A stretch of 49,016 bases of DNA, the filler included, from Bipalium vagum (lineage: Eukaryota): assembly GCA_037834085.1 (NCBI GenBank). It is 2 parts of 2 records of this genome, joined end to end, with 100 filler letters (N's around TTAATTAATTAA, not from the genome) between each part and the next. Parts side by side here need not be neighbours in the genome. Positions count along the whole stretch, not along the records: positions 1 to 23,498 come from JBBMKC010208376.1; 1 more part is not named here. One strand, written 5' to 3'. Shown piece after piece: positions 1 through 41,725 of this stretch (the stretch's first letter is position 1; every line of letters begins with the position of its first letter). Made by a program: the position numbers and the translations under genes. Below the pieces are notes generated by a model that was not told the origin of the DNA, did not search any database, and saw only the letters and a program-made list of their open reading frames with translations.

Positions 1-885
1 TCGAAAAGTAATTTAAAAATTCCCAGAAATTTTAGTTTGAAAATACTTAGAAAATAAAATAACCCTCTAAAAATAATAATTTTTTTAAGAAGCTTAAAAG
101 AGGTATTTTAATAAATATTAAGGATCATAATAAAATAATTTTAGGGAATTGTTAGGGAATTTTAGAATTTTGATAAAATTTTTAGAATTTTAAGTACAAT
201 TTTGGGAATATCTTAAGAATATTTCGCAGATGAATATCAGTCCCAAATCAGTATATATCATATATCAGTATATAAGCAAAGGGATTTCAGCAGATTTTTA
301 ACCCTCAGAAAACGTGTTTACAATTATTGTCAACTGCAGAGTTCGATAACAGACAAATTCGGAAACAGAGTTCGATAACAGACGAATATTACAGTTCCAT
401 TCACAGGTACTCCAACGTTCATTTTAATGATGGGACTATGTTTACAATTCCCCACCAGAGGGTTATCGGTGAGCAACCGTTAGGGCTCAGACGATAACTC
501 GGGAGTTTTAACCGAAGGCAAATCGTAAGGTCTTTTTATTTAATTTTTTTATTATTTTGTATTAATATTTTATTAATCGTTGACTATATCTAATTATTAG
601 TATTTGATTTAACACTACATTTGATCCGTTTTGACTATATTTAATTATTATTGATAGTATTTGATTAAACGTGTAATTGTTGTGTTGTGATAAGATAGTG
701 TGAGGTAGGTTTAACATTTCAGACATTAATTGTGATCCCAGACTCTTGCATTATCTTGTTCGAATTCCGTGTATTTTCTTTTGCGTTTGTGTGATATAAA
801 TACAGGTGTTGCTTTACTGATTGTTTTTTTGCACCACCTAAGATTTGGAGTCAAGTTTAAATTTGATACACTAAATAGTGAACAA
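1..885 (+). mobile_element. LTR (3' portion) of a gypsy-type family, homologous to 20749-21650
   Basis: Shares the CCCCACCAGAGGG..TGAGCAA..GGCTCAG hairpin, TTTTGCACCA and the terminal TAGTGAACA with 21231-21650. TATA-like GTATATAAG near 272. Short tandem duplication CAGAGTTCGATAACAGAC at ~337-384. Confidence 0.75.
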
Positions 886-1469: not shown

Positions 1470-2800
1470 AAACCTAATCCATTTAAGTATTCAGCTCGGA
1501 TATACATGTTTGAGCCAAGCTAAATAATTAAAGCTCCCGGATTGACATTATCATAATGGGAAAGGGGAGCGGATGGGTCACCTAGAGATGAAGAGCTTGT
1601 GAGCTTAGCATCAAGAGCAGCCACAGAGTCAATTATTGAGCTGAGGCGACTAAGGACTGGTTGAGCTGGATAACTGATAGCTCCGGGTTTCTGAGTAGGC
1701 AAAACCAGAAGAGGAAGATCCCCCTGATATGATTAGCGATTGGCGAATGGTGGAAAACTGGAGAATATAATTAACTACCAGATCTTCCATCGCAAAACCA
1801 AAATAGAACAAGAAATTGCGAAGACAGAAGCTGCGAAGATAGTTGGCTTTTATGACTAATGGTAGTGGTAGTAGTAGACCTGTCAATAATGGCGCAGGAT
1901 TTAAAGGTGTTGAGCCGAACAAATTCATTGGAAGAAAGAGTCGATTCGGATGTAAATGTTTCAATGGCTTTGGTAGTACCGATTGAAGATAATCATGACT
2001 AACGTCCTGATGCATTAGGAAGAGAATTTGAAAGAGAACCAAGAAATAAAGATAAAATAATTAAAATATTGAGCCGTGGCTGAATTAACAGTATTTCCTG
2101 CTATATTACAACAAGTGGTTCAGGTGATAAAACTTCATATGGTTGAATTTGGTGCACACCCAAAGATCAGATCAGTGGTAAGTAGGTATGGAAGGTATGT
2201 GCGGTTAAGAGGAGTTTGTCAAGGGACTACAAAGGTAAAATTAGGAATGATCGGGTTTGAAAATCAGATTTTAGAGGTGCATTATTGTTTAAAGGTAAAA
2301 TTGTTGAGAGAGAGCTTGAAGGATAATGGGTGATTGTAATTTCATGTGAAGCTCAGTAGTTAGATGATGACGAATATTTGATGGAGAAAGGTAGTAATGC
2401 ATCAAAGAGACATTTTTGATGGCGATTCAAGTAGATGATCAATGTGAGCTAGCTAATACATTGAATAGTTATTTGAAGTCATTAGTGAAACATAAAGTGT
2501 TTCGTACGGCAAGAGAGTATGGTGAAGTATCAAGTACAGAAGTTCAATATCCAGATTCTGTGGTGTCAGAAGAAATAATCAATGAACAAGAGACATTGGA
2601 ATACGGAGAAACACCATTATCTGATGAATTAGTGTCAATTCAAGCTATAGTTTCCGAATTGATACCACAAGAACTGATACTAAGAATGCCCGAACTGAAA
2701 GATCAGTTAAGAAAAAGTCAGTATCAATCAGAAAACCTTACATTGGCAAAATGGGGAGAAAGTTATAATGATCGAGTGTCAATAGATGTTATCCATGAAT
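1470..2800 (+). mobile_element. Decayed gypsy gag/protease region related to the element at 21658-23340
   Basis: SLEERVDSDVNVSMALVVPIED..PDALGREFER (~1925-2040) aligns by eye with SLKEKVDVNGNVIMALVDLDEE..PGVLEREFAR (23140-23255). Many stops. Confidence 0.55.
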
Positions 2801-3660
2801 GTACTAAGAAAAGGAGACGATTTGGGGTGTTTTATAAAAAGATGTCAAAGAAACTTTGACATTAAGGAAACCCCAATAAAGAAGAGAAAAACAGCGATTT
2901 ATGCGCTGTTACACGAAGACCTATGAGAGGCCTACGAGGAAACATCTGGGAAGGCAAGAGGATTTGAAGCTAGAATCCGTCTATTGTTTGAGAAAGAAAA
3001 AATGTCGTTGACGACTGCGAAGAATTAATAATGTATAGAAGAGGCAGTGAGGACATTGAAGGCTTTTTTTAGGAATGTTAGATCATTGGTAGAGAAAGTA
3101 CTGTCACATGATCTGACCGTTGAAAAGCTTGAGGCACTGTTCTTAGTAAAATGCATTGGAGATGAGGTCGCACGAGAAGTCAAAATGCGAAGGCTGGGGA
3201 AAGGAAGCGAAATTAAAGATTTGATGAGATTGATAACCGACATCAAAGAAAAAGTCGGTAAAGGCAGTATGGAGTTACAGAGATGTTGTTATAAGGACAC
3301 CAGAATACTCTCATTTATAGGAAGACATATCGCAAGAGAAAATATTAAATGTTATGGATGTAATAAAGATAGCCATTTAGCTTGTAACTGTACGGCAAGA
3401 AGACAAATAGAATGCTGGACCTGTTCGAGTCAGGGTCACATTAGCAGGGATTGTCCAAAAAAGAAACCTTAAGTATGCTTCGGATGTCAGAGAGAGGGTC
3501 ATATTAGGAGAAATTGTCCAAATATAAAGTATAAACAGGAATGAGCATAGTGAAAGGGAATTTTATACGAACCTTCACGATGGTAGGAGTTTTCAAGCAC
3601 AGATGATCAGAGGTCCAAAAAAAGCTTATAGAAGAAATAACTTAAATGCATTAGAAGATT
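2800..3660 (+). mobile_element. Decayed gypsy Gag with tandem CCHC zinc knuckles
   Basis: Knuckles CYGCNKDSHLACNC, CWTCSSQGHISRDC and CFGCQREGHIRRNC. The N-terminal part (IYALLHEDL*EAYEETSGKARGFEAR) resembles the Gag at 16744-16968. Confidence 0.85.
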
Positions 3661-3684: not shown

Positions 3685-4355
3685 TTGTTGGGTTAGCTAA
3701 GGACACATCCCTGTAAACCCTTGTAAAAGCATATGTTAGAGACCGCAATAGGGTCTAGATTGGTTACCATTATTATCAATTAATTATTAAGACCGCAAAA
3801 GGGTCAGAAATAAAATAATAATAATTAATTAATTAAATAAAAAGTACATTCAAACAAAAAGGGCAATTAATTATTTCCAAAATAGATCTAATCTTGACAA
3901 CGGCGAACCTTAATTGCCAATATCAGATCAAAAATCGCAACGAGGGATCGATTTAGAATTATCGATCTAAAAAGGGAATCGACATTCCCCATTAGTCAAG
4001 CTGATCTACGACTGATTTGTCGTCTGATCAGAAGATGAAATTCGCAGTGGATTGCCAGAAAATCTCTGAGAGAAATTTGCGTCAGAAGGCACAATTTTTT
4101 CTTGGAGTTAGCAATCACTCTTCATGCCCTCTCTGCGACAGGAGCTCACAACGGGTCCTTTGTTGTTACGAGTTTTCTGAGCAAACCCGGTTGGGCTCAG
4201 CAAACCACCCTTTGGACCTGTCGTAGTCACAACTGGTGAGAGTATCTTCACTTTATTTTCTTTGTTTTTTTCTAAAATAATTAATATTTTGTGGAAACTC
4301 CCGAAACCATCCAAAAATTCCAAATGACAATATAATATTTTTGTGCACCAATAAC
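3685..4355 (+). mobile_element. LTR copy of the structured-LTR family (3' end uncertain)
   Basis: Begins TGTTGGGTTAGCTAAGGACACATCC, nearly identical to 40971. Shares GACCGCAA..GGGTC hairpins, the GATCTAATCTTG palindrome and the leader multi-stem with 40971-41725. Confidence 0.8.
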
Positions 4356-6100
4356 ATTATTATGTGATCAATTAATAAAAACTTTGTTTATTTAATTAGT
4401 TGTATTTATTTTTTATATATTTCATGTCAAAATAATCCTTTGCCGAAAATTTAATATATAATAAAGATTAAATAAAATAAAATATAAATAATAATAATAA
4501 TTATTATTGTTATTATTATTGTTGTTGTACATAAATTAATACAAAAGTCGTGAAAAAAAAACTAAAAATAGATTTTTTATAAAAAATTATGTATCAAAAG
4601 TTATAATTAGCAAGATATGTATAAAACATATTTAATTTATTATTTTAGTAAAAATTGCTACTAAAAATAATGTAGCTATTAGGAATTACATATAAATACA
4701 ATCAACATTTTTGTTGACTTGCACAAAATAGTCGACATAAAATAAACAGCGCAAATAAACGGCTCAAAAAAATAAAAGCGAAATATTTTGATCACGACAA
4801 ATTCAGAAACAGATAAATCAGACATATTCAAATCACGAAGCCATAATATCAATAACAATACAAATCATCCAAGTAGCTCAAATTATTTACATATAATCAG
4901 GTCAACGATTCACAAATAATTCAATAACAAATGTTATGCTCTATAGCAAGCAATTAATTTTATCTATTATTATTTTCTTTTTCTTTTAATAAATATTTTG
5001 CGTAATTGGTAATTTTTAATAAATTACACAATTACAATTATTTTAAATAACTGAAATCAAAAACCCTCAGTTGGTAATTTTCAATAAATTGCACAACTGT
5101 TTTAATTAATTATCTTATAAATAAATGCTAGGATCTAGCCCTAAAATCATGTAATCCTTTTTGTTATTTCCTCACTTCGGTTGCAGATTTTTGTTTTTCG
5201 CAGTTCACACACTAATTAGGGTGGTGAATTGTCTATCGTTGATATTTTTATCAGTGCGAAAAGATTTCCTTCCTTTAAATAATCCTAAACTCGGGGAAAG
5301 TTTTCTTACAGAGGATTGTTCAAACAGTAATCACTCTTGATTTGTAAAGTTACACAACTGTTTTGTTATTTAGTATCAATAAAGTATATAAAAACAATTT
5401 ATTTTAGTCAATTAAAAATCATAGAAAAAGCACGCTTCCAAAAACCTTCTAACCGTTAAGCTTTTAGTTCGCTCCACTTTTTAAGAGACTTAACAATTTA
5501 ATTATTTGATTGATTATTACCATTTGATTTTTAGTGATTACTTGAGACATTTTGTGATTGTTATTTTAGCAAGTTTTGTTCGTAGTTGTCTTGATTCATT
5601 CATTTGCGTCAAAAGTGAAGGGGTCAGTAAACTTTTCGAGCTAAGTGTTACGACAGTGTTCATTTTAAATAATAGCGTAACAAAATTTAATTTTACACTC
5701 TCAGTCTTGCCTCATTACATTTTCACAAACTACATCTGAAAGTTTATTTTGATCTCAATCCCTTTCTGAACTAAAATTTGAATCCCCTAATATTCTCTAC
5801 CTTAATATCATTTTTTCCTTCCTTCCCCTAATTTCATAAACTATTAACAATAACTTAACCACCATTCGGGAAATTTTTACTTTTTCGAGAAAACCAACTT
5901 AATAATATTTTACAATCTTATTATTGCTACGTTACTAAAATACACTTCGTCGTCCCTTCCTGGTTTCTTTTCTACTCAAAACTAGTACCTTTTCGACGAA
6001 CATATTTTAAATAAGATTTCGATAAAACTGAATGATTTGATTATTCAGATATAAGTAAAAACAAACGAAACAAATTATATTTAATCTATCAATTGAATAT

Positions 6101-9100
6101 TTATTTTCTTTCTTCGAAAGCCTTAGATTTATTCTAAAATTTATTAATAAGACCCAGTAACAAAAAAAAATTACCTGAACATTTTCGCAAAAAGCATTTC
6201 TGGAGATTAAATTTTTCAGTTTTTCATTTTCAGTTTTTAATTGCCTTATTTTCTCTTCCATTTTTTCAAATTGTACCCTCTTTGCTCGATATCGTGCTTT
6301 AAGATCATTGTAGTGATTAAGTAAAGTATCAAATGATTTCAGTCCTTCATTCTGTCGTTCGAGCACCTTTGAATTTTGATTAACTATCGACTTAAGTCTA
6401 TCAAGTTCCTTTTGCTTTTCTATCAACTCGGAAACATTAATCAAATTTTTACTGCCAATACTTGATATTTCAAGTGTCTCAAAACGGGCTTTCAGAGACT
6501 GGTTTTGGAATTTTTCTTCTTCTAAGACCTGATTACCTTTTACAATTTCAGATTCCAGCAATGATACTTTTTCTTTCATCAAATCCATTGAATTTGAAAG
6601 TTCTGAGAACTTACTATAAGATTTTAACAACTGTTGATCCTTATACATCAGTTCATCTTTGGCATAATTTAACGAACTTGTAGCACTTTGTAATTGACTT
6701 TTGAAACTTTCCACAGTTTCATAGGCTTTTCGAATTATGCACTCATTTTTTCCGAACAAACTTTGATACTCGCTAACACAGATATGCAATAATTCCTCAA
6801 CGGACATTTTGTACATTGCTTTCACTTCATTTCCAGAGTTCTTTTCTATGAAATTCTTTCCCAAGAATTCAATGCTTTCTTTCATTCTCAACGCTTCTAT
6901 TGACTGAACAATAATTTCTTTGAGTGTTCTTGTTTCGCATTCAAATGGTTTTACAATTTCATTAATCAAATATTGATTGGATCTCTCATTTTCGAAGTCT
7001 TCAATCAACAAACTTTGTTCAAAGATTTTCTTTTTTAATATTTCAAATTCCAACTTACACTTTTGTAATTCAGTTTTCAATGCTCTCATTGATTCAGTTT
7101 CTCGTTTTGAAAATTTTTCTTTGGACAATCGTTTAAATTCTATTATTTCTTGTTTTTCCGACAATTTCTTTTGTAGATTATCACAAGATAATCGGAGATT
7201 CTTTTCCACCAACTGAAATTCTGCCATTTTACACTGATTGTCCTTCAAAATTTCTTCGATTTCTTCATGGTGTCTTTTTCTAATCAAATTTATGTCATCT
7301 AATTTTCTCTGAACCTCTTCATTTTGAATGACACATCGCCTTGCACAACTGTTATCCACAAAATTTTTAAAATAGTCTATCCTCTGACATTCTAGTTCCG
7401 CAGTTCGAACATTGATTTCGCTTTTTAAATCAATTTTATCCGAATTTAGCATCGCAATTTGATTTCTGAAGTCTTCACGTTCTTTTTCTTTGGTTTCCTT
7501 TAGGGCGTTCAATTCACATTTCAAATTTGCTACAAGACTTTGCAAATCTTCATTTTCTTTATTTGAGGAGACCAAATCGTTATGCAATGTCTCGATAACT
7601 TTAGTTTTGCGGGATATACTTTCCTCGTACTCCATGATTTTCTCTTTTGAACTGCTAATTTCTTCAGACATTTTACTAGCATTTTCTCTAAGAAATATCA
7701 AGTCACTGAGTTCATCGTTAAACTTATTTCTTTCAGTTTTCAATTTTTGAATTTCAGATTGACAATTAAAGAATTTTAACCTGAAAGAATCCAGAAGTTC
7801 CTTAAGTGAATTTTCCGGCTCATTTTCATTATGATTTTTAACTAATTGATCAATACTTTCAAAATTTTCAAAAACTGAAGTTTCCATATATTTTATTGCA
7901 CAAATCAATTCTTTTATTTTATCTAATTCAAAATAAAGCTTTTCATTATCTTCTCTTAAAGTCAACAACTTTTTCTCTATCTCTGCTTTATCTTGCACCA
8001 CAGTTTTAAGATGATCTTTCAATTCAGAATGACTGGCTTCCATCTGAAGTTCATATTCCAATTTTTCAAACATGCACGTTGAATTCAAATCAACATTTTG
8101 GAAATGAACTTTAATTTTTTTAATCAAAATACAACAAAAGTGATAGATAAAATCTTCCAATTTAAAGGAAGATTTATTCATATCCTTAAAATTATTTGAT
8201 AAAAATTGTGTAAAAATGGAGAAAGATTTTTCAACCAAATATTCAAATTTGTCTTTTTCTTCCCATTCCAATTTCTCTAATTTTTCTGATAGCATATCTA
8301 AAATGTTAATATCATCTAACATTTCCAGACTTAAAAGTGATTTATTTTGTTGCGGCAATCTTTTGGAATTTGACAATTTAGAATTTTGTAAATTTGAGAT
8401 GCTCTACAAAATTAATGAACATAAATTCAATATAACACTAGTATATATCTTTAAGAATTTCTACTGTCAAAAAATGGTTTAATGTTTTAAAACTATTAAG
8501 GAATGAAGTAATTTTTTCAAATTTCTTAATTCACTTTTTAAATTAAAATATATTGATAGTTACAAAAAATAATGGTAAAATTTAAATGATCACAATAATT
8601 ATGAGCAAGATAAAAGGTTTATGAAAATGAAAAATAAAATATCAAAATAAACTTTTTCAGATGAATACATATTTTCTTCATTTTTCAAACAAATAGTATC
8701 AATGTTAAACAAGTCCAAATCCAAAATTGAGTCATTCATTGCACTGTTCTTGTTATCAATATCCTCATTTTGATTAATACTTAAACAACTTTGCTTAATA
8801 ATTGAGATTAGTTCAGGAATGGATTCATCATATGAAAGAATTTTTCCACTTTCAATAATTATACTTCTTAAGGAGTTACGATAAACTTCTTCGAAAGTAA
8901 TAAATTCATTCACTTTATAATTAAGTTCGAGGCATTCATTTATTTGCTCTTCAAGATCATTGTTGATTTTATCAATGTATAACTTTGCCTGTTCTAACTC
9001 AGTCGATTTTTTCTCAAGTTCATATTGATTTACAAGTTCTTCAATTCTGAATTCTGCGACTTCTAATTTGTCTCTTACAGAATCCATTTCAATTTGTAAT

Positions 9101-9134
9101 TTATTTTCATTATCAAATCTTTTCATAGTTGGAA
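6101..9134 (-). CDS. Large coiled-coil protein (~900 aa, family not identified). Exons 9134-8653, 8403-6175, 6133-6101; 5' end uncertain (upstream exon or ATG at 9126)
   Basis: Long E/K/L-rich open frames in AT-rich DNA. GT-AG junctions keep frame (SSEK|SISNL; ENVQ|NKSKAFEERK*). The last intron is 41 nt. Confidence 0.8.
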
Positions 9135-9784
9135 CTAAAAATAATTTTAAAATACTCATAATTAACATAAACTAAATCATATTAAAATATATTTCATGTT
9201 AACTTTTCTACTTATATATAAACAAATTCATGAAATTGAAATTTAAATTCATAATGTTAATTTAATTCTTGTCTGATAAAATGACTAATTTTGATTTAAT
9301 TAATATTAAATATAAAATTATTTAATCTTTAAATTAGAAAGTTTTGGTGATTTTAAAACTACCATATTCCTGAGTTACTGAATTTTACATTTTTGTCTTT
9401 GTTAATGTTTACCATACTAATTATCTCTACTTATATCTCTTCATTTTTATATATAAGATATCTAATTTAATTCTCATAATGTAAGTAATACTGAAACAAA
9501 ACTTGATATGTGTGTATCGATTCATTTTTCTTGATTGATAAATTTTCATAAAAAGAAAATTTAATAAAATTGCTTAAAACAATTAAAAACTTAAATATAT
9601 TTTTAAAATTTTTATTTCGGTTTAAATTCCGTAAACAGAGTTTGTTTTAATATTTAATATTTAATTTTGTGAATGAATAAGTTCTAAACGATAATATTTA
9701 TTTGTACAAGCTGAATAAATTTACTTTTTGTTTTATTAGTTAAGCAAATTAAATGTTTGATGAACTTACTTTTCAAACTGTGAA

Positions 9785-13880: not shown

Positions 13881-16800
13881 TAAATAAAAATCTCTTTCTT
13901 GTTATTCGCATTGAGGTTTTCAGTCTTCACTGTATTTAAGGTCTTCGTTTTAGGGTTTCCTGTTTTAGCTTCCTCATGTTGTATCTGACATTGATTACAT
14001 GTATCGCATTTTGGCCTGGACAGCAGATCTGCATTTGTGTGGTCTGTCCCTTTACGGTACTCTAATTGAATATCTAAACTGCTCAAATAATTGATCCACG
14101 TTTGGAACTGGGACGTGATTGACTTCTTTGTGCTTAAAAGTAATAGCTTTTTGGTCTGTTCGCAACAAAAATTTCCTGCCGTACAAAAAATGATTAAAAA
14201 GCTTACAAAAATAGTAAATAGCAAGCAACTCTTTTCTGGTCTCGCAGTAACCCTTTTCGTGGCTATTCAACGTGTGAGATCTACGCTACTATCCGTTCTT
14301 TACCATTATTATCCATCTGCGATAAAATTGCACCAATAGCGTCAAAACTTGCGTCCGTATCAAGAATAGTCTTGTCTTAGATCTGGAAAGCACAGTATTG
14401 GACTTGACATCAGGGCCTTTTTCAAATTCACAAATGCTTCTTCTGCAATTTCATTTCACACAAGCTTTTTATTGACATTTCCACACATGCGTTCCAAAGC
14501 TCTAGCTTTTCTTGCATATTCCTTGATGAATTTCCTATAATAATTGCATATTCCTAGGAAACTTCGTAAACCTTTTTACGCAGTTTGGTTTGTTGAAAGA
14601 TGTAATGGCTTCTATCTTCTGTAGATTCATCTTAATCCCTTTTTGATTTAAAAATTGTCCCAAGAATTTTACTTCTTCTTTTAAAAACTGGCATTTTTCA
14701 GGGTTCACTCGCAATCCAGCTTTTTTTATTTTTTAATACCCTATCCAGCCTTGTGTAATGTTGTTCGATGCTGTCTGAAAATACCAAGATATCATCCAGA
14801 TAAACAATTGTTCCTTTCAAACCACCAACTACTTTATTCATAATCCTTTGAAAAGTCCCTGGAGCAGCTGCTATTTCAAACGGCATGCGATTAAAACAAT
14901 ATTGGCCTGTTTTTGTTGAAAAGGCCGTCTTTTCTTTTGACTCTTCATCCAATTCCACTTGGTAATAGGCGTTTCCTAAATCAATAGAACTGAAATATTT
15001 TGACCCACTTAATTGATCTAGCATTTCATCAAGATTTGGGATTGGAAAAGCCGGTCTCTCTGTTATTGCATTGAGCTGTCTGAAATCCAAGCATAATCTG
15101 ATTTCCTGCTTATCTTTTTTCCACACATATATTAAAGACGTGTTCCACGGTGATTGACATTTCCTAATTATGTCATTCTTATGAAGGTTGTTTATTGTTT
15201 CATTGATCTTGTCTTTTAAATTCATCGGCTGTCTAAATGGTTTAATATTAATAGGATTACTTGTTGTTTCTATGTTATGCCGAGCTAAATGAGTGCATCC
15301 GAAGTCCCATTTATCAGCCATAAAGGCGTCTTCATTTTCTTGAATAATTTTACCTAACTGTGACTTCTGTTCTATTTTCAATGCTGTTAATGTTCGATGT
15401 TGTCGTTCTCCAATGTTTATTTGTCTCCCAAATTTTGCCTCAATATTGCAAATAAATGGTTTTTCTCTGTCTTCTATTTTGTTTATTTGCACTTTCGTAG
15501 TTAAGTTTTCTTGCTTTAATACAAAACCAAACTATCATTGTAATTCTACACATCCTATCGTCAGGAGTAATATTTTTCAGCACAATAAAATTAATTTCTG
15601 CTTGTCTGCCTTCTATTACAACATTTACTGACATTTTCCCATAGTTTCTGATGCGCTGTCACTTGCACATCGTAATCTGTCTTCACATTTTCTTAGTTGA
15701 ATATTACACAATATTTTAGCTATATTACTGCTCATTATATTATTTCTGACCGATGTATCTAATAAACATTCCAACCTCAACTCTTGTATCATTACTGTCA
15801 CACTCGGCCTCCCCTAAATCACATATTATCGCTAACCATATTCACTCATCCAGTATCATATCTATTACTCACCTCACAATTCTCTCTTTTTATAAATCTT
15901 TATATTTTTTCGTTCACCCTGTCATCTTCTCTTCCATCCACGGCCTCCTGGGAATAATCACTGACGATATTTAGTTGATGGCTCCGACTAGCTCCCCGAC
16001 TAGTGGATCCCTGTTGTTTGGGTGTTTCTCATCTTCAGGTATATCACTTCTATAGCATTCATCCTGTTAAAACTTACTCTGTTTCTTGTTGGCATTTCTC
16101 CCTGACTTCTAGATTCGTATCTACGTGAATCGAATTGTGCATAGCATTTTGACATAATGTCCATGTTTTTTGCATCTTAAACAGACAACATTGGGACATG
16201 ATTTTTTATGTCCAGGTTTTCTACACGCGAAAAATTTTCTGTCAGAACATTCTCTACTTAAATGTCGCATTTTGTTGCAAGACCAACAAACAATATCACT
16301 TTGGTCTCTTCACCTGTTAATACTATGGTAGTTACCTGTCATGTGTCTTGATCCTGCAAAATTCTTCGGTACTGTGTGATATTCAGGAATCTTTGTTGTC
16401 TGTACCATCTTCATTTTATTCTGTTTTGTATTCACTGCAGTTTCGGTCAAAATTGATTTTCTCGTTTCCCTTTTGATTAATTACTTCCATTTTTTTCATC
16501 AGAGCTTCAATATCATCCATATTTTTAGTTTCCTCATTTCTACTTCTCGAACCATTTCTTCGTCATTCACGAAGTATAATAACATTCTTGATATTAAATT
16601 TTCTGTGATTTGATACGCCAACGCCTTTTCACTTTCTTCTTTATTATCTTCACGAATGATTGGATATCTTCGTTTCCTCTTCGATATTGTAATAGGTTTT
16701 CCAAATCTGATATCATGTCCACCGGTTCTGCAAAAGCTGGTCGCTATTTAACTTCAAAGCCATCTGCTTTTGAAAATGTTTTTTCATAATCTTCGATGAG

Positions 16801-20748: not shown

Positions 20749-21650
20749 TTATTGGGTTTACCAAAACACTCATCCGTCCCAAATGAAAATTGTAAAAGGA
20801 TGTTTAAAATAATAAGAATAATAATTAAATAACAATTTTTGCTAATTAAAAAGTACAAAGTTAATTAAAAAGGGAAAAAAGGCAATAATTTATTTTTTGT
20901 TGGGATCTAATCTTGACAATGGCGAACCTAAATTGCCAAGATTAGATCAGGGTCTGCAAGGAGGGACCGATTTAGGATTAATGATCCTAAAAGGAAATAT
21001 TGACATTTCCCATTAATAAAATTAGTCGTCGACAAAAATACTGTATAAGAAGAAGGATTCTACCATAAATTAGCCCACAATCACGAGATCAACATTTTGA
21101 AGAAACTTTTTAGAAGACGACAATTTCAAGATGTTCGTTGAGATTCAAGCCAGACGACAGATTCAAGATATTCGGAAGACTATAATTCTGAAGTATTTTT
21201 AATGCATTTGGTCTTGGGATTGGGTTTGAGTTCCCCACCAGAGGGCTATTTCTGAGCAACTGTAAAGGCTCAGCTAATAGTCCGGGAAACCTAAACGAAG
21301 ATAATTCGTATGCTTATTTCATTTTTTTATTTTCACCTTAATATTATTTTTGGTTAAAACTAAGTAATTTGATTATATTATTTCATATTAACTATTGATT
21401 AACTTTAAGTATTTATTTGTGTTCTTAACTCGAATTTGGTTAACTATTTTGTTTTGATTGATTATTAAAGATAATTGCAGATGTGTCAGATCTTATTGTG
21501 ATTCATTTTCTCTTAAGTTTGACGATTTTAGTGTAATTGTTATCATTGTATGTGTTTTAAGGTGTAAATACAAATTATTGCTTTAATGATTGTTGTTATT
21601 TTGCACCATCTTAGAGTAGGAATCAGGTTTAAAGTTTGAATTAGTGAACA
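20749..21650 (+). mobile_element. 5' LTR of a gypsy element (structured-LTR family)
   Basis: The 5' half matches the 3685 and 40971 copies; the 3' half matches 440-885. Ends TAGTGAACA, 7 nt before a PBS. Confidence 0.8.
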
Positions 21651-21657
21651 TATTTAT

Positions 21658-21682
21658 TGGTGAGCGGCCGACGTGATTCGAA
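21658..21682 (+). promoter_or_regulatory. Primer-binding site complementary to the tRNA-Trp 3' end
   Basis: TGGTGAGCGGCCGACGTGATTCGAA versus the reverse complement of the eukaryotic tRNA-Trp 3' end, TGGTGACCCCGACGTGATTCGAA. Confidence 0.75.
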
Positions 21683-23340
21683 AATCGGTTGGTAATTGTG
21701 AAACTGTGTGGGTGATTGTGTGTTATTGGTCTTTGTCTAGTTTGCGTGACTTGTTTTGAATTTGTAAGCCCTGAATACCGTTTTGATAAATTTTTGGAAC
21801 TTTTAGTAATGGCCGCCGAGGCATAGAAGTTGTTTATAGTGTTTCAGGAAGAAATCAGTAAGCGTCCAGAAAACTAATCTGGCTAGTGGAAAGAAATCAG
21901 TTACAGATATTCGAGGAGTTATAACCAGAAGTTTGACAAAGATAATTAAAGAGAAAGGTGTAGAAGAAAATCATTTAGAAATCTAGGAGAATAACCGAGA
22001 AGGAACATTAGAAGACATTAATACAGGTGTTAAAGAGATAAATATAATGGATTAAGAATTCGTAAAATTACCGGTAGGATATTTAATGGGGAACCAACAG
22101 AATTCGCAGATTTTATGGCTGAGTATTGGCAAGTGACAGAAGCGTTAGGATATGATGAGGCACGGATGGTAAGAAGATTACCGAATCATTTGAGTGGAAT
22201 GGCACAGAGTGCAAATTATGACAAACGTAGCAAACAAAAGTTGGGTCGAAGTGGTTAAGGAATTAACGAAGAAGCTAATTTCGGGAGATATAGGTAGAGT
22301 AAATAGGAAGCAAGGAGCAGAAGAGTCAGTAGGCAAATATGCGTATCAAGTAGAATTATTAGCACAGAGAGCATTCGGATCCAAGAAACAGTGGACACAA
22401 ACAATTAAAAAGATAGTGGAAGATCAGTTTTTCATTGGAATGTTAAAATCATTAAGAACAGCGTTAGGATTGGCAGATTATAAAATTTTCGAAGAGTTAC
22501 TGCAGAAAGCACGAAAAACAAAAATGAATATTAAAGGAAACCCAACGATGATTTGTGAAATAGGAGCAGTTAGAAGAGACAGCAATAGACTAGAAACATG
22601 GAAATAAAGCGAAATGAGACCAATGAGCAAATAGTAAAGAATATTATATTGTCAGAAGCCAGGGAATTTAACGAAGCAATGTGGATCTAGAAAATCAGAA
22701 TTTTGTCCAGGTCCAGCTAGAAATCAGAGGACAAATACAGATATTGTTTGTAGAAACTGTAATGAAACAGGTCATTTGGCAGAAAAGTGTAAAATAAAAA
22801 TTTTTAGGTATTGCAAGAAAAGAGAACATTTGGAAGAGACGTGTTGGGCAAAGAATTCACCTCAAAGAGATAATGTAAACATCGATGAGAAAGTACAATG
22901 CTTTTAATGTAAGGCGTATGAACACATGGTGAAATCTTGTCTTAGTGAAAAGAGATCACAAAAAGTGATTAAAAGGTTGGCATTGGGTAATGAAAAAATA
23001 ATCATGGTAAGAGATATGGAAGACAATAACGAAACCGAAAAATTGAGGGCAGAAAACGGAGATCCAGAGTAATTGGACACGAAATGGTATCAATGATCCA
23101 AATACAGGAAAATGAAATTAAGATATTAACTAGAAACGATTCACTGAAAGAAAAAGTAGATGTTAACGGGAACGTAATAATGGCATTAGTGGATTTGGAT
23201 GAAGAAGAATGTAATACACTTCCTGGGGTACTAGAACGGGAATTCGCAAGGACCTCTAGAAACAAAAACAGAATTATGGATTTGTTAAGTCAGGTAACGG
23301 AACAGGCGGTCACTGCAATGATGCCTGGGAGAAGTCAAAG
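21683..23340 (+). mobile_element. Decayed gypsy Gag region with about four zinc knuckles, truncated
   Basis: Retrotransposon gag motif QGAEESVGKYAYQVELLAQRAF..EDQFFIG. Knuckles YCQKPGNLTKQC, CRNCNETGHLAEKC, YCKKREHLEETC and CF*CKAYEHMVKSC. Confidence 0.85.
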
Positions 23341-37564: not shown

Positions 37565-39927
37565 CTACTGCTGTCTACTATAGGGGTGATATCCTCCGGT
37601 GTTACCTGCAGTACTGCCTGCGCCTCCTCGTCCACGCGCGGTCATTTTGCCTCCTGCTGCACTACCTGGAGCTCTCGGGGGTACGACATAAGGCTGTGGC
37701 GGCATCGGATAAGCTGGACAGATCAACGGAACACGCATCAGAAGGAAGAGGAACATGAAATGAAGAAGTCACAATAAGTCACGGAACATCAGTGATAAGA
37801 TAAGATACTTACAGTAACCATACGGATAGCCACCGTAATAACTGCTGTAGTAGGCGTTTGGATCGTATGAGTATGGATATTCATAACTATAGTACTCACT
37901 GCCCGGGGGATACATGGAGCTGTTGTAGTTACCCCAAGCCGTCACTGTCGATAATGGAATCACAATCAATAGGGCCACAGATAAAAACGTCAATCAAACC
38001 GTTACTTTTATTTTTGTTCACTTGATCCTTGGGCACCGCCATTCGCACGTCACACTGCAAATTAAAACGAAACACGATCAAAACGAAAATCAATAAAAAT
38101 TTCGAAATAGAGCGTGATAAGTAGTTATCATTATCAAATGGAAATTTTTTCTTACTTAATCTTTTTTATGTTACCGATATATATGTACAACAAATGTTAC
38201 GACAAAGCTAACTTTAACGCTTAGAGATAAAATGAAAATGATCTTTACCAGAAAATGTTTACGGAGAAAAAATCAATAAAATCGAGTTACATGAAAATAC
38301 CAATGAAATCTCAGCACACCTGTCAGAGGGGAACTTAGCCGTGGTTTGAAAACACGTACGTTTCGTGTATGATGATGGTAGTAGAGGTAGGTACCTTTGT
38401 CCCTTCTTTTTCAAGTCCCACCATGCCGGCAACGTTCAGAAGAAAAGCCTTTTTGGAAACGTTGGCACTACTTTCCTGTTTGAGACACGCGTATTTTGTG
38501 CGGCTTTATAATCGAAAAATGAACTCTCGGCAACAACAAAAGACTCAGCATAAAAAATTGATTATTTTTTTGCTTTTCCAAAATATCCAATCATGCACAA
38601 TCGATAATTATTTTAATAAACTCAGACAAACAAACATCGGTTTGAGAAAGCGAAAAACAATGTTTAAAGATTATTATTATTATGTTAATAAAAAATGACT
38701 TTCACTAAATTATTGACAGGTTTTAATCGGAAAAAAATCAGTTACTAAAATTTAGTAAAAAAATTATGAAAATCGATAATTTAAAAAGTTCAGCTTAAAT
38801 TATGATTATAATTAAATCAATTTCTGAACCATTGATCTCATTTATCTTTACAAATCAATTGACTTTTAAAATTATAAATATATCAAAAAATCGATAATAT
38901 AAATACAAAATAATTAATGCAACTTTAACTAAAATTGTAATAATGCCGATTAATTGATTTTTAAATTATTAATTTATCAATTGACTCCAACAAAGAATGT
39001 AAAAATGACAAATCAAAGCCAATAGTCAAATCTGGTCGACTTTTTACTCTTTGGAAATTAACGATTTTTGTGATTTTGTTTTATTATCGATTTTGTGGTG
39101 TAAAGTGTTAATTTACCTTGGAACCAAACACGTCTTGTTTTTCGATTAAAATAGCGTTTTTCGCCGCTTCCTCTGTGGTGAACGAGAGAAAAACGTACGG
39201 CTTCCTTTTTCCCTTGGACGTGTCAAACGGTAAATCCACGCTTTCCACCTGAACAAAAAAAGAGAATGGAAGATAGACCAAATGTTAGAAACTCCATTTT
39301 GGTTTTCTTATCGTACATTTCCATATTGGGAAAAGAATTCTTTGATTTGATCTTCAGAAACGTCTGGAGAGAGGCCGCCGACGAAAATCTTCTTGTTTGG
39401 CTCCTTAGTGGGCTTTGCTGACTTCGGATCTATCTTTTTGTTCTTCAACCGATGCTCGCTAACTTCGAGCACTCGTCTCATCACCTCCTCACTCTCCATC
39501 GTAACAAAGCCAAATCCCCGGGAATTCCCGGTCATTTTGTCGAGTTTGATGACGCAGTGAGTCACTTTGCCCCAAGACTCGAAGTACGACTTCAGGTCGT
39601 CCTCGGTCGTTTCCCAGCTCAATCCGCCGACGAAAAGTTTTCTATTCGAGCATTAAATGAAGGAAGGAAGAAAGCGTAGAAATCCCGTTCGGGATCGGAT
39701 CAGAAACACAACCTGCTGTCATCGTCGTCATCGACTTCGTTTGTCGAATCGACTTTGTTGCTCCATTTGTTGTTGGAGTCGTCGTTGGTACCCAAACGAG
39801 ACGTGTCATCTGGTACATTTTCTGCTGTTTCATCCTTCTCAAAATTGTCAGCGTCGACTTGTTCCACCACTTCCTTGTGGTTCTCGACGTCCTCGCTGAA
39901 ATTTTCGTTAGAATTGGTGGCCGACAT
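37565..39927 (-). CDS. hnRNP A/B-D (squid-like) two-RRM protein, 335 aa. Exons 39927-39713, 39641-39317, 39248-39117, 38054-38000, 37944-37813, 37713-37565
   Basis: KLFVGGLSWETT, SRGFGFV, KKIDPK and KIFVGGL; Tyr/Gly-rich tail with RGRGG and terminal GYHPY (PY-NLS-like). All junctions are GT-AG and total 1008 nt in frame. Confidence 0.93.
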
Positions 39928-40970
39928 GTTTTATGAAATGAAATTGAAACTGTTTTTAAATTGATCGATTAAAACAAATTTGTTTTGTGATTTATTAATT
40001 TCATTTAAGAAATGACTTTTGCTTTCTCCACCAAAACCAGTTTTTCTGGTCCAGATCAATTTTAGAAATTCTTTTTGAATTTTTTAAATTTAATTTCTTA
40101 TCAAAATAATTAAGAATATTAAACCAAAATTAATTAATAATATTTGATAAACTTTAATGAATTTTTAAGTTAACAAATTTCAAATAATATGAGGTTACCA
40201 AAATAATCTCACAATCATAACTTTAAAATTCAATTTCAAATTCAACATAGGTATATATAAAGCTATTGGACCAAAACACTTAAACCATATACACAAAAAT
40301 CCGTGGTAAGCCAGGTAAACCCAATGCAATTGTAAATATCATTTCAATATCATTTAAAAATAAACTTATCAAAAATAGTTTATATTAAGAATGATTTATG
40401 TAAATGTCTTAGAAATTCTTCGTAATTTTTGGAATATACGTAGGCTACTCGACAAGTGTTACAAAATGACACTCTACATTAGCTCGATGTGATCTGAATT
40501 TTTATGATAACATTTTGATTTTTTAAGGTGTGCCTTAATGTTACATTTTGAACAGATGCTTTTGGATAATTGATATTTCAATACTTCTTAATATAAAAAT
40601 GAAATTAAATCCCGATAATTGAAAAATCATGATTTATTAATATTAGCGAGGATATTTATCTTAAAGGTATTTCATTTCTCAGTCTAATTCAACTTTTGGT
40701 GATGAAACCCTTCACAATTCCACTCTACATTACTGATTCGAAAAATCTAACAGTGGTCTTAGTTCACTGACGGATTACTTTAAGAGCATCCAAAACCAAT
40801 CGTGGGACTAACAAGCATTATTGTCACCAAAGAACTAATAAAGCTTGGTTATAATATGACTTAAATCAAGATTTGTGCATCATTGAGTATTAATATGACT
40901 TAAATATACTTAGTGTTCCATGAATATTTTGGTGTGAAAATCTGTGTACCGATTAGATCTTGCATATATT

Positions 40971-41091
40971 TGTTGAGTTAGCCAAGGACACATCCTTGCC
41001 AACCCTTGTAAAAGTAGAAGTATGGTAGAAACCGCAATATGGCTTAGATTGATTATTATCAATTAATTATTAGGACCACAAGAGGGTCAGA

Positions 41092-41146
<55 letters not shown>

Positions 41147-41725
41147 TAATTATTAATTAATTAATTAAAAAGTACCAAAATGGGCAATTAATTATTTCCA
41201 AAAAGAATCTAATCTTGATAATGGCGAACCTAAATTGCCAAGATTAGATCAGGGTCAGCAAGGAGGAACCGATTTAGAATTATCAGGCTAAAAGGGGATT
41301 GATCGTCTGATCAGAATAGTATATAAAGAGTTTGAATCCGCAGTGGATTGCCACAGAAGTGAGATCGAGAGCTGCTGTTATTATTTTCAGAAAAGTGATC
41401 GAGCTATTATTATTGTCAGAAGAGTGATATTGTCAGAAGAGGGATCAATAGTTGCTATTATTATTTTCAGAATAGTGATCGAGCTATTATTATTGTCAGA
41501 AGAGTGCTATTGTGATTACGAGTTGTCATTATTATTTTCAGAAGGAGGACCAAGAATTAATTTGCTGCTATTATCTGAAGACTTTTTATTCGACATTGTA
41601 ATTCATATAGATGCCCTCTATGCGACAGGAGCACACGACGGGTCCTGTGCGGTTAGGGGATTTCTGAGCTGACCGGATTGGGCTCAGCTAACCACCCTTT
41701 GGACCTGACGTCACAAGTGGTGAGG
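40971..41725 (+). mobile_element. LTR copy of the structured-LTR family
   Basis: Colinear with 3685-4240. TATATAAA near 41320, an internal (AAT)n tract and an internal tandem array. Confidence 0.85.
41357..41582. repeat. Degenerate ~28-30 nt tandem array inside the LTR
   Basis: Repeated GTGATCGAGCTATTATTATTGTCAGAAGA-like units. Confidence 0.85.

What the first reader, a model, noticed from the sequence alone, without database searches (positions are those of the whole stretch)
3740..4015. Conserved palindrome cassette in the U3-like region, four copies
Seen: GATCTAATCTTG-ACAAT-GGCGAACCTAA-ATTGC-CAAGATTAGATC has perfect 12-bp arms at 20904-20948, with variants at 3885-3929, 31070-31114 and 41206-41250; the loop GGCGAA is invariant. 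It is flanked by small GACC-GCAA..-GGTC hairpins (one with flipped arms, GGTC..GACC) and a TTTAG..CTAAA hairpin. In the 20904 copy, loop CCTAAAT could pair with downstream ATTTAGG as a pseudoknot. Inference: a structured 3'-UTR RNA element of the genomic transcript, or a DNA cruciform/enhancer.
Basis: partly seen in the sequence, partly recalled or inferred. Interest (0 to 1): 0.7.

Follow-up and report, generated by a model that had tools for sequence, protein, structure and literature searches.

The report
Hairpin array in flatworm errantivirus LTRs
The four palindromes are the first of about seven neighbouring hairpins just upstream of the TATA box in the terminal repeat of an abundant envelope-carrying retrotransposon of a flatworm; paired changes between element families suggest the hairpins were kept by selection, likely as a folded tail of the element's RNA.

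Summary
All four copies lie in U3 of LTRs of a gag-env-pol Ty3/gypsy element (errantivirus type) in a flatworm genome: TG..CA ends, 4-bp target duplications, tRNA-Trp primer site, thousands of candidate copies. The palindrome (hp1) opens an array of short hairpins running through the TATA box. In 121 aligned copies, individual copies decay equally in stems and loops, but differences between families fall mostly in loops (A1 vs E: 24 loop, 8 stem) and five stem pairs change on both sides. hp1's 12-bp arms never change between families, so they show no covariation. The proposed pseudoknot fails in families A and E; no ribozyme match. A sister family (C) has no array, another (D) has an array of unrelated sequence, and B appears to have taken the module by recombination. 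Best reading: a selected, non-essential structured 3' UTR of the genomic RNA (0.5); rivals are a DNA promoter role and template-switch by-products. Closest precedent: the palindrome region before the TATA box of plant Sirevirus LTRs. The scan's earlier notes held no look-alike.

The parts
3686..5682 (+). Family A solo LTR (copy 1), split by an unrelated insertion at about 4290-5528; flanks AAGT/AAAT (4-bp duplication, one mismatch)
3741..3755 (+). Upstream 4-bp hairpin, loop GCAATAG
   Evidence: 52 such hairpins in 29 family A copies
3791..3805 (+). Second upstream 4-bp hairpin, loop GCAAAAG
3885..3929 (+). hp1 of copy 1 (two arm mismatches)
3932..4031 (+). hp2 (damaged, 3932-3949), hp3 (3952-3971), hp4 (3974-3989), hp6 (4001-4031) of copy 1; the TATA box behind them is lost in a 13-base deletion
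4124..4240 (+). Structured stretch of the inferred R region ending in a splice-donor-like GGTGAG
   Evidence: donor use not shown
20750..21650 (+). Family B 5' LTR (copy 2)
20904..20948 (+). hp1 of copy 2: 12-bp stem, A.C mismatch, 4-bp stem, GGCGAACC apex
20951..21010 (+). hp2 (20951-20968), hp3 (20971-20991), hp4 (20993-21010) of copy 2; hp6 is partly deleted
21039..21049 (+). TATA-like box (one change from the TATATAAG of most family B copies)
21658..21682 (+). Primer-binding site complementary to host tRNA-Trp(CCA)
22049..22950 (+). Broken gag with CCHC zinc knuckles of the family B element
30995..31185 (+). Copy 3: fragment of a subfamily A3 LTR; hp1 31070-31114, 32-base deletion through hp2-hp3
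40971..41724 (+). Copy 4: subfamily A2-like LTR up to its splice-donor-like site; hp1 41206-41250, hp4 and half of hp6 deleted, TATA 41319-41328
1..884 (+). 3' part of a family C LTR, a sister family without the hairpin array (comparison, not a member)

Best explanation
The cassette is part of an array of about seven short hairpins in U3 of the LTR of a flatworm gag-env-pol Ty3/gypsy element, and it likely works as a folded 3' untranslated tail of the element's genomic RNA that was under selection while each family was active. Shown: position between the pre-LTR purine tract and the TATA box, stem-preserving differences between families, neutral decay in dead copies. Inferred: U3 is transcribed only from the 3' LTR, so the hairpins would form at the RNA's 3' end and present recurring purine-rich loops (C-GCAA-N1-2-AG-G in three stems, GGCGAA, AGGA) to an RNA-binding protein, most likely the element's own zinc-knuckle Gag or a host export/stability factor, raising the share of RNA that is exported and packaged. 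The module is an accessory: family C spread without it, family D carries a different array, and family B likely acquired it by recombination. The same DNA serves as promoter in the 5' LTR, so part of the sequence conservation probably reflects factor-binding sites.
For: Cassette-bearing LTRs stand as 3' LTRs behind the shared purine tract and 3' ORF (A: L190, L192, L195; B: L201, L202, L208). With 55 pairs fixed on one A1 copy, family E differs at 24 of 76 unpaired and 8 of 110 paired positions (Fisher p 2e-5). Two-sided changes: hp3 pair 6 A-T 22/26 in A1 to G-C 13/30 in E; hp6 outer pair 1 C-G 27/29 to T-A 23/31 in B; hp6 outer pair 4 A-T 29/29 (A1), G.T 9/16 (A2) and 21/29 (E), G-C 21/27 (B); hp6 inner pair 5 C-G 19/27 to T-A 13/15 in A2; hp7 A-T 29/31 to G-C 23/30 in E. 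Chance of that many double hits: 0.017 (E), 0.002 (B, hp3 and hp7 left out after inspection), 0.09 (A2), 0.055 (A3). A hairpin just before the purine tract runs G-C 10/12 (A), G.T 4/4 (B), A-T 16/16 (C). G.U intermediates and a lasting A.C mismatch (96 of 121 copies) fit selection on an RNA helix better than copy-repair of palindromes. The 160 bases before TATA fold at mean z -4.6 in A, -4.6 in B, -3.8 in D (unrelated sequence), against -1.5 in C.
Against: No RNA data (one search listed no RNA run). Both strands fold equally well, and the wobble tally is only a tilt: on pairs fixed beforehand, four G.T events on the sense strand against the constant hp1 A.C, a C.A in E (21/30) and partial A.C in A3 (6/12, 4/12). 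hp1 arms and hp2 stem show no covariation at all. The stem/loop contrast is not significant for A2 (p 0.74), A3 (0.07) or B (0.68, inflated by a register shift in hp3 and a non-homologous hp7). Family-level breaks exist: A.G in hp3 of A2 (5/6), T.T in hp6 of an A1 sub-lineage (6/27). Loop inversions in L015 and L193 show that template switching acts on these stems and could itself make two-sided changes. Family C has no array. No binding partner was tested; Gag binding is a guess from retroviral precedent (recalled).
Confidence: 0.5

Rival explanations
1. The array acts as DNA in the 5' LTR: palindromic or inverted factor-binding sites, or extruded cruciforms, that set promoter strength and tissue specificity, as proposed for the Sirevirus palindrome region.
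For: It ends exactly at the TATA box in A, B, E and D. Short motifs survive in different pairing contexts: GGCGAA while its partners change in E and A3, TCTACGACT paired upstream in D but downstream in A/E. hp1+hp2 identity between A and B (0.878) equals that within families (0.884, 0.874), while hp3-hp6 drifted (0.764). DNA folds are stable on both strands (z -6.3, -7.2). U3 swaps are a known way to change expression (PMC4728375, section 16).
Against: Seven different stems with loops of 4 or more bases, bulges, G.T intermediates and a stem between TATA and the inferred start are not what dimeric protein sites need; a covarying hairpin also lies outside the LTR before the purine tract.
Confidence: 0.27
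2. The hairpins are by-products: template switching during reverse transcription or replication creates and repairs inverted repeats, and the conserved block reflects recent exchange between families, not function.
For: In-place loop inversions in 2 loci (L015 hp1, L193 pre-purine-tract hairpin); recurrent deletions between short direct repeats in hp6 (6 of 29 A, 5 of 29 B, 2 of 30 E copies with deletions of 8 or more bases there); B nests among C-type elements; template switching can produce compensatory changes (PMC8794818, abstract).
Against: Copy-repair gives perfect Watson-Crick pairs, yet the hp1 A.C mismatch and bulge persist in all five groups and G.T states are fixed in whole families; loops diverge three to four times faster than stems between A1 and E.
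Confidence: 0.15
3. The hairpins matter mainly as sources or targets of host small RNAs that damp the element, as in maize Sireviruses.
For: Same place and make-up as the Sirevirus siRNA hotspot.
Against: The longest stem is 12+4 pairs in 45 bases, shorter than usual Dicer substrates (recalled); no small-RNA data here.
Confidence: 0.05
4. hp1 with the downstream ATTTAGG forms a pseudoknotted self-cleaving ribozyme or switch.
For: Seven complementary pairs in family B (27/30 at the outer pair); GGCGAA recalls the HDV J4/2 strand (recalled).
Against: Outer pair C.A in A1 (26/29) and four outer pairs G.G, T.G, C.A, G.T in E; the covariation at that position follows hp3, not the loop; no Rfam hit at gathering score in the window or at E<=10 over the cassette in four loci; order of elements does not fit the HDV fold (by inspection).
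Confidence: 0.03

Closest known systems
Palindrome-rich cis-region of Sirevirus LTRs (Bousios et al. 2016, PMC4728375; abstract, passages and section 16 read)
   Same: GC-rich hairpin-forming palindromes in the upstream half of the LTR before a conserved TATA box; an inverted repeat near the internal/3' LTR junction; env-like gene; structure kept while sequence differs among families; long indels; LTR swaps suggested.
   Different: Plant Ty1/copia versus animal Ty3/gypsy; there one palindrome motif repeated about 7 times, here about seven different hairpins with bulges; the passages read hold no compensatory analysis (0 hits for 'compensat'); siRNA targeting shown there, untested here.
GAG-ENV-POL errantiviruses with HSV/gB-type env in Platyhelminthes, e.g. 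Smed_errantivirus_1-6 (PMC13524379; passages and supplement rows read)
   Same: Gene order gag-env-pol, class III-type fusion protein (Pfam Monjiviricetes_fusion), flatworm host; the env row of Smed_errantivirus_1 looks homologous to L113 by eye (not aligned).
   Different: That table gives no LTR or primer site for the six Schmidtea elements; here LTRs, tRNA-Trp site, 4-bp duplication and extra 3' ORFs are seen; no LTR structure appears in the passages read.
Retroviral 3'-end RNA elements: MPMV CTE, RSV DR, MLV export elements (PMC9143442, passages)
   Same: Structured cis-elements near the RNA's 3' end that could recruit export or packaging factors.
   Different: No sequence or Rfam match; short separate hairpins, not one long stem with twin internal loops (recalled); analogy only.
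Foamy virus LTR with splice donor upstream of the poly(A) signal (PMC3694450, abstract)
   Same: A splice-donor-like site sits in the long inferred R region upstream of poly(A)-like signals.
   Different: Adding U3 did not change predicted donor accessibility in 27 copies, so no support that the array masks the donor.

Membership tests
Ty3/gypsy LTR retrotransposon (Metaviridae) | LTRs with TG..CA ends and short target-site duplication | tested here: met
   TGTT..AACA ends; 23 of 33 copies with both ends have an exact 4-bp duplication, 5 more one mismatch
Ty3/gypsy LTR retrotransposon (Metaviridae) | tRNA primer site behind the 5' LTR and purine tract before the 3' LTR | tested here: met
   Site matches host tRNA-Trp(CCA) at 22 of 23 bases in most copies; shared purine-rich stretch before A, B and C LTRs; priming itself not shown
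Ty3/gypsy LTR retrotransposon (Metaviridae) | pol order protease, RT, RNase H, integrase | tested here: met
   Pfam hits in this order on broken copies L113-L115
Errantivirus-type, GAG-ENV-POL | Fusion-protein gene between gag and pol | tested here: met
   PF24664 E 5e-22 and 1e-36 in L113, 2e-9 in L116, between gag and protease; seen on elements found with the family B gag of the window
Errantivirus-type, GAG-ENV-POL | Placement in the published pol tree | not tested
   Reference pol sequences were not aligned
Sirevirus palindrome region | Plant Ty1/copia host element | tested here: not met
   Gypsy domain order, flatworm host
Sirevirus palindrome region | Hairpin-forming palindromes upstream of the TATA box | tested here: met
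Sirevirus palindrome region | Small-RNA hotspot | not testable with these tools
   No RNA run listed
Known self-cleaving ribozymes (HDV-like, twister, hammerhead, pistol, hatchet) | Match to the family's covariance model | tested here: not met
H-type pseudoknot of hp1 | Loop-tail pairing kept or compensated across families | tested here: not met
Ty3-type bipartite primer site | U3 segment complementary to the primer tRNA's 5' part | tested here: not met
   Only 9-base runs with G.U in half of family A copies, none shared by B or E; model from PMC5371799 passages
Functional conserved RNA structure | Covariation beyond phylogeny | tested here: inconclusive
   Five two-sided family-level changes and loop-biased divergence, but few lineages, no R-scape, none in hp1

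The most novel reading that the evidence does not exclude
Planarian errantiviruses carry an exchangeable U3 module whose selected property is a string of small RNA hairpins: it is passed between families by recombination (A to B), rebuilt from unrelated sequence (D) or dropped (C), and docks Gag or a host factor on a recurring C-GCAA-N1-2-AG-G loop, making it a new class of 3'-end RNA element in animal LTR retrotransposons and a convergent counterpart of the Sirevirus palindromes.
Probability: 0.25. Interest if true: 0.65.

Novelty: new variant of a known kind. Interest (0 to 1): 0.42.

Why it matters
U3 is normally the least conserved part of an LTR, with few motifs besides the TATA box (PMC3601003, passages). 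An array of covarying hairpins there, present, absent or replaced among sister families in one genome, gives a natural series for asking whether LTR palindromes act as RNA or as DNA, a question left open for plant Sireviruses. It also adds LTR, primer and target-site annotation for the little-described gag-env-pol elements of flatworms. It is not a new ribozyme and not a host element.

Tried and rejected
Rfam: 0 hits at gathering score; 2 chance hits at E 6-8 in four loci. Pseudoknot, HDV-like fold, Ty3-type tRNA pairing in U3 and foamy-type donor masking: not supported. Reading copy 1 as the 3' LTR of the gag at 1860-3540: rejected, it has its own target duplication and lacks the pre-LTR purine tract. 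Relatives outside the genome: 0 in viral contigs, 1 chance match inside an unrelated gene in metagenomes; no look-alike in earlier notes. Protein Atlas gave no answer for the 3' ORFs. The gag-pol junction in L119 is a microhomology deletion, not a splice. A fuzzy-pattern script timed out. RUNX or nuclear-receptor sites in the GACC hairpins were considered from memory and not tested. Literature searches showed no description of this array; subscription papers and repeat libraries were not searchable. Counts of the exact loop motif and of perfect arms over all copies were not obtained.

Full report
Observation. The copy at 20904-20948 has perfect 12-bp arms and is the only such repeat in the window, against 0.13 per block shuffle. 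The stretch 20904-21012 folds into four separate hairpins at z -5.1 on the + strand and -5.4 on the - strand. The copies are members of a large repeat: 3382 and 2996 first-look candidates in the 441-Mb genome, of which 40 were scored each time.

What it sits in. Related copies share sharp ends, TGTTGGG at the start and AACA at the end, with unrelated flanks; 23 of 33 copies with both ends show an exact 4-bp duplication. They are LTRs, mostly solo. Copy 1 (3686-5682) is a solo LTR split by an insertion; it follows a gag only by chance. Copy 2 (20750-21650) is a 5' LTR followed by a site complementary to a host tRNA-Trp gene and a broken gag. Longer stretches found with that gag show gag, a fusion-protein gene (PF24664), protease, RT, RNase H, integrase and extra 3' ORFs, all broken. 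A host RRM gene is 69-73% identical to trematode and monogenean proteins, so the host is a flatworm; two earlier notes on other pieces of this genome call it a planarian (unchecked beyond this). GAG-ENV-POL errantiviruses with HSV/gB-type env are described from Platyhelminthes (PMC13524379, passages and supplement rows). Cassette-bearing LTRs of families A and B also occur as 3' LTRs behind a shared purine-rich tract and the same 3' ORF, with the cassette 215-290 bases into the LTR and just before a TATATAAG box. It is therefore U3: promoter DNA in the 5' LTR and, by standard LTR biology, the 3' untranslated tail of the genomic RNA. Start and poly(A) sites are inferred from motifs only.

The array. 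After hp1 come hp2 (5 bp, loop GCAAGGAG), hp3 (6-8 bp), hp4 (6 bp), hp6 (6+6 bp) and, between TATA and the inferred start, hp7; family A has two more 4-bp hairpins upstream (52 in 29 copies). The genome holds at least five LTR families with the same start. A, B and E share the array. D has 4-5 hairpins of unrelated sequence in the same place. C has an AT-rich U3. Mean folding z of the 160 bases before TATA: A -4.6 (10 of 22 copies), B -4.6 (10 of 19), E -1.3 (10 of 16; older, more decayed), D -3.8 (10 of 11; -3.2 without one mis-anchored row), C -1.5 (3 of 3); the - strand gives similar values except in C (30 shuffles each).

Selection test. I aligned 121 copies (A1 31, A2 17, A3 12, B 31, E 30; best hits, not a random sample; two duplicates, one truncated copy and the copy with an inverted loop left out). 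Changes private to copies hit stems and loops alike (G/C sites 8.6 vs 8.4% in A1, 11.4 vs 10.9% in B, 21.7 vs 20.2% in E), as expected after insertion. Between families, with pairs fixed on one A1 copy, E differs at 24 of 76 unpaired and 8 of 110 paired positions (p 2e-5); A2, A3 and B give p 0.74, 0.07 and 0.68, the last affected by a shifted hp3 register and a different hp7. Five pairs change on both sides and all five stay Watson-Crick; one runs A-T, G.T, G-C across families. Chance of these double hits is 0.017 (E), 0.002 (B, after leaving out hp3 and hp7), 0.09 and 0.055. A hairpin before the purine tract shows the same G-C, G.T, A-T series over A, B, C. Against this: hp1's arms and hp2's stem are the same in all five groups and so carry no covariation; hp3 is broken in A2 (A.G 5/6) and one hp6 pair in an A1 sub-lineage (T.T 6/27); hp6 is often deleted between short direct repeats. 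The strand is weakly fixed: four G.T events on the sense strand on pairs chosen beforehand, against the constant A.C of hp1 (96 of 121), a C.A in E and partial A.C in A3.

The pseudoknot has seven pairs only in B; in A1 the outer pair is C.A (26/29) and in E four pairs fail or wobble, while the change at that position is compensated inside hp3. Rfam finds nothing. No conserved complement to the primer tRNA lies in U3, and adding U3 does not change predicted access to the splice-donor-like site in 27 copies.

History. In a tree of 366 bases of the 3' ORF (16 rows, midpoint root for drawing, no one-clade test), the two B rows group with two C rows (100/100) and the two A rows stand apart; A-B coding identity is 0.58, yet hp1+hp2 are as alike between A and B (0.878) as within them. 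The simplest reading is that a C-type element took the U3 module from the A lineage by recombination; the direction is inferred. C spread without the array, so it is not essential. Two loci carry a loop inverted between intact arms, showing template switching at these stems, a process that can create and repair hairpins without selection (PMC8794818, abstract).

Mechanism. Best reading (0.5): a selected, folded 3' tail of the sense RNA whose recurring purine-rich loops dock a protein, most likely the element's zinc-knuckle Gag or a host export/stability factor; position and family-level conservation are shown, folding in cells and any partner are not. Rivals: DNA promoter function (0.27), template-switch by-product (0.15), small-RNA source (0.05), ribozyme or pseudoknot (0.03). 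RNA and DNA roles may coexist, since short motifs (GGCGAA, TCTACGACT) persist in different pairing contexts.

Comparison and novelty. The nearest precedent is the palindrome-rich region before the TATA box of maize Sirevirus LTRs, where structure is kept, sequence varies among families and LTR swaps were proposed (PMC4728375; abstract, passages, section 16). U3 is otherwise described as poorly conserved (PMC3601003, passages). Six searches of the held library showed no account of this array in flatworm or other animal gypsy elements; closed journals and repeat libraries were out of reach. Verdict: a real feature, a new variant of a known kind, interest 0.42.

Noticed in passing
window 4124-4240, 21231-21313, 448-553, 41611-41724: A second structured element in the inferred R region of all LTR families, ending in a splice-donor-like site; its central hairpin differs between B and C in ways that look compensatory by eye. 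No Rfam match.
   Followed up: partly
L190-L215, about 20-45 bases before the 3' LTR: 8-bp hairpin before the purine tract, kept in A, B and C with two covarying pairs, one through G.T.
   Followed up: yes
L015 (hp1) and L193 (pre-tract hairpin): The loop is inverted in place between intact arms, the mark of template switching.
   Followed up: partly
L120-L134: LTR family D has 4-5 hairpins of unrelated sequence before its TATA box, loops GGCGT, and a 12-base inverted repeat that spans the TATA box.
   Followed up: partly
L115:407-2321 (-), L195, L200, L201: Extra ORFs behind integrase: one with a predicted membrane stretch and one without Pfam match whose end resembles a DEDDh exonuclease by eye (recalled motif, untested).
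   Followed up: no
L111-L116, end of gag: gag ends in a degenerate copy of the protease start (GNVIMALVDLD against GRLVSALLDSG), suggesting env entered with a duplication; L119 has lost env by a deletion that leaves gag and protease in one frame.
   Followed up: partly
window 4290-5528: Unidentified 1.2-kb AT-rich insertion inside copy 1, partly repeated in L015.
   Followed up: no
window 26809-28386, 33129-33743, 39308-39968, 14698-15531, 6007-9171: Host TRAF-like gene (RING, zf-TRAF, MATH), a probable TAF8-like gene (by eye), an hnRNP D-like RRM gene, a second gypsy-type RT fragment and a long coiled-coil gene.
   Followed up: no
LTR starts, e.g. window 3686 and 20750: The first 16 bases of every family's LTR can form a small hairpin (TTGG..CCAA) whose loop differs by family (by eye).
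   Followed up: no
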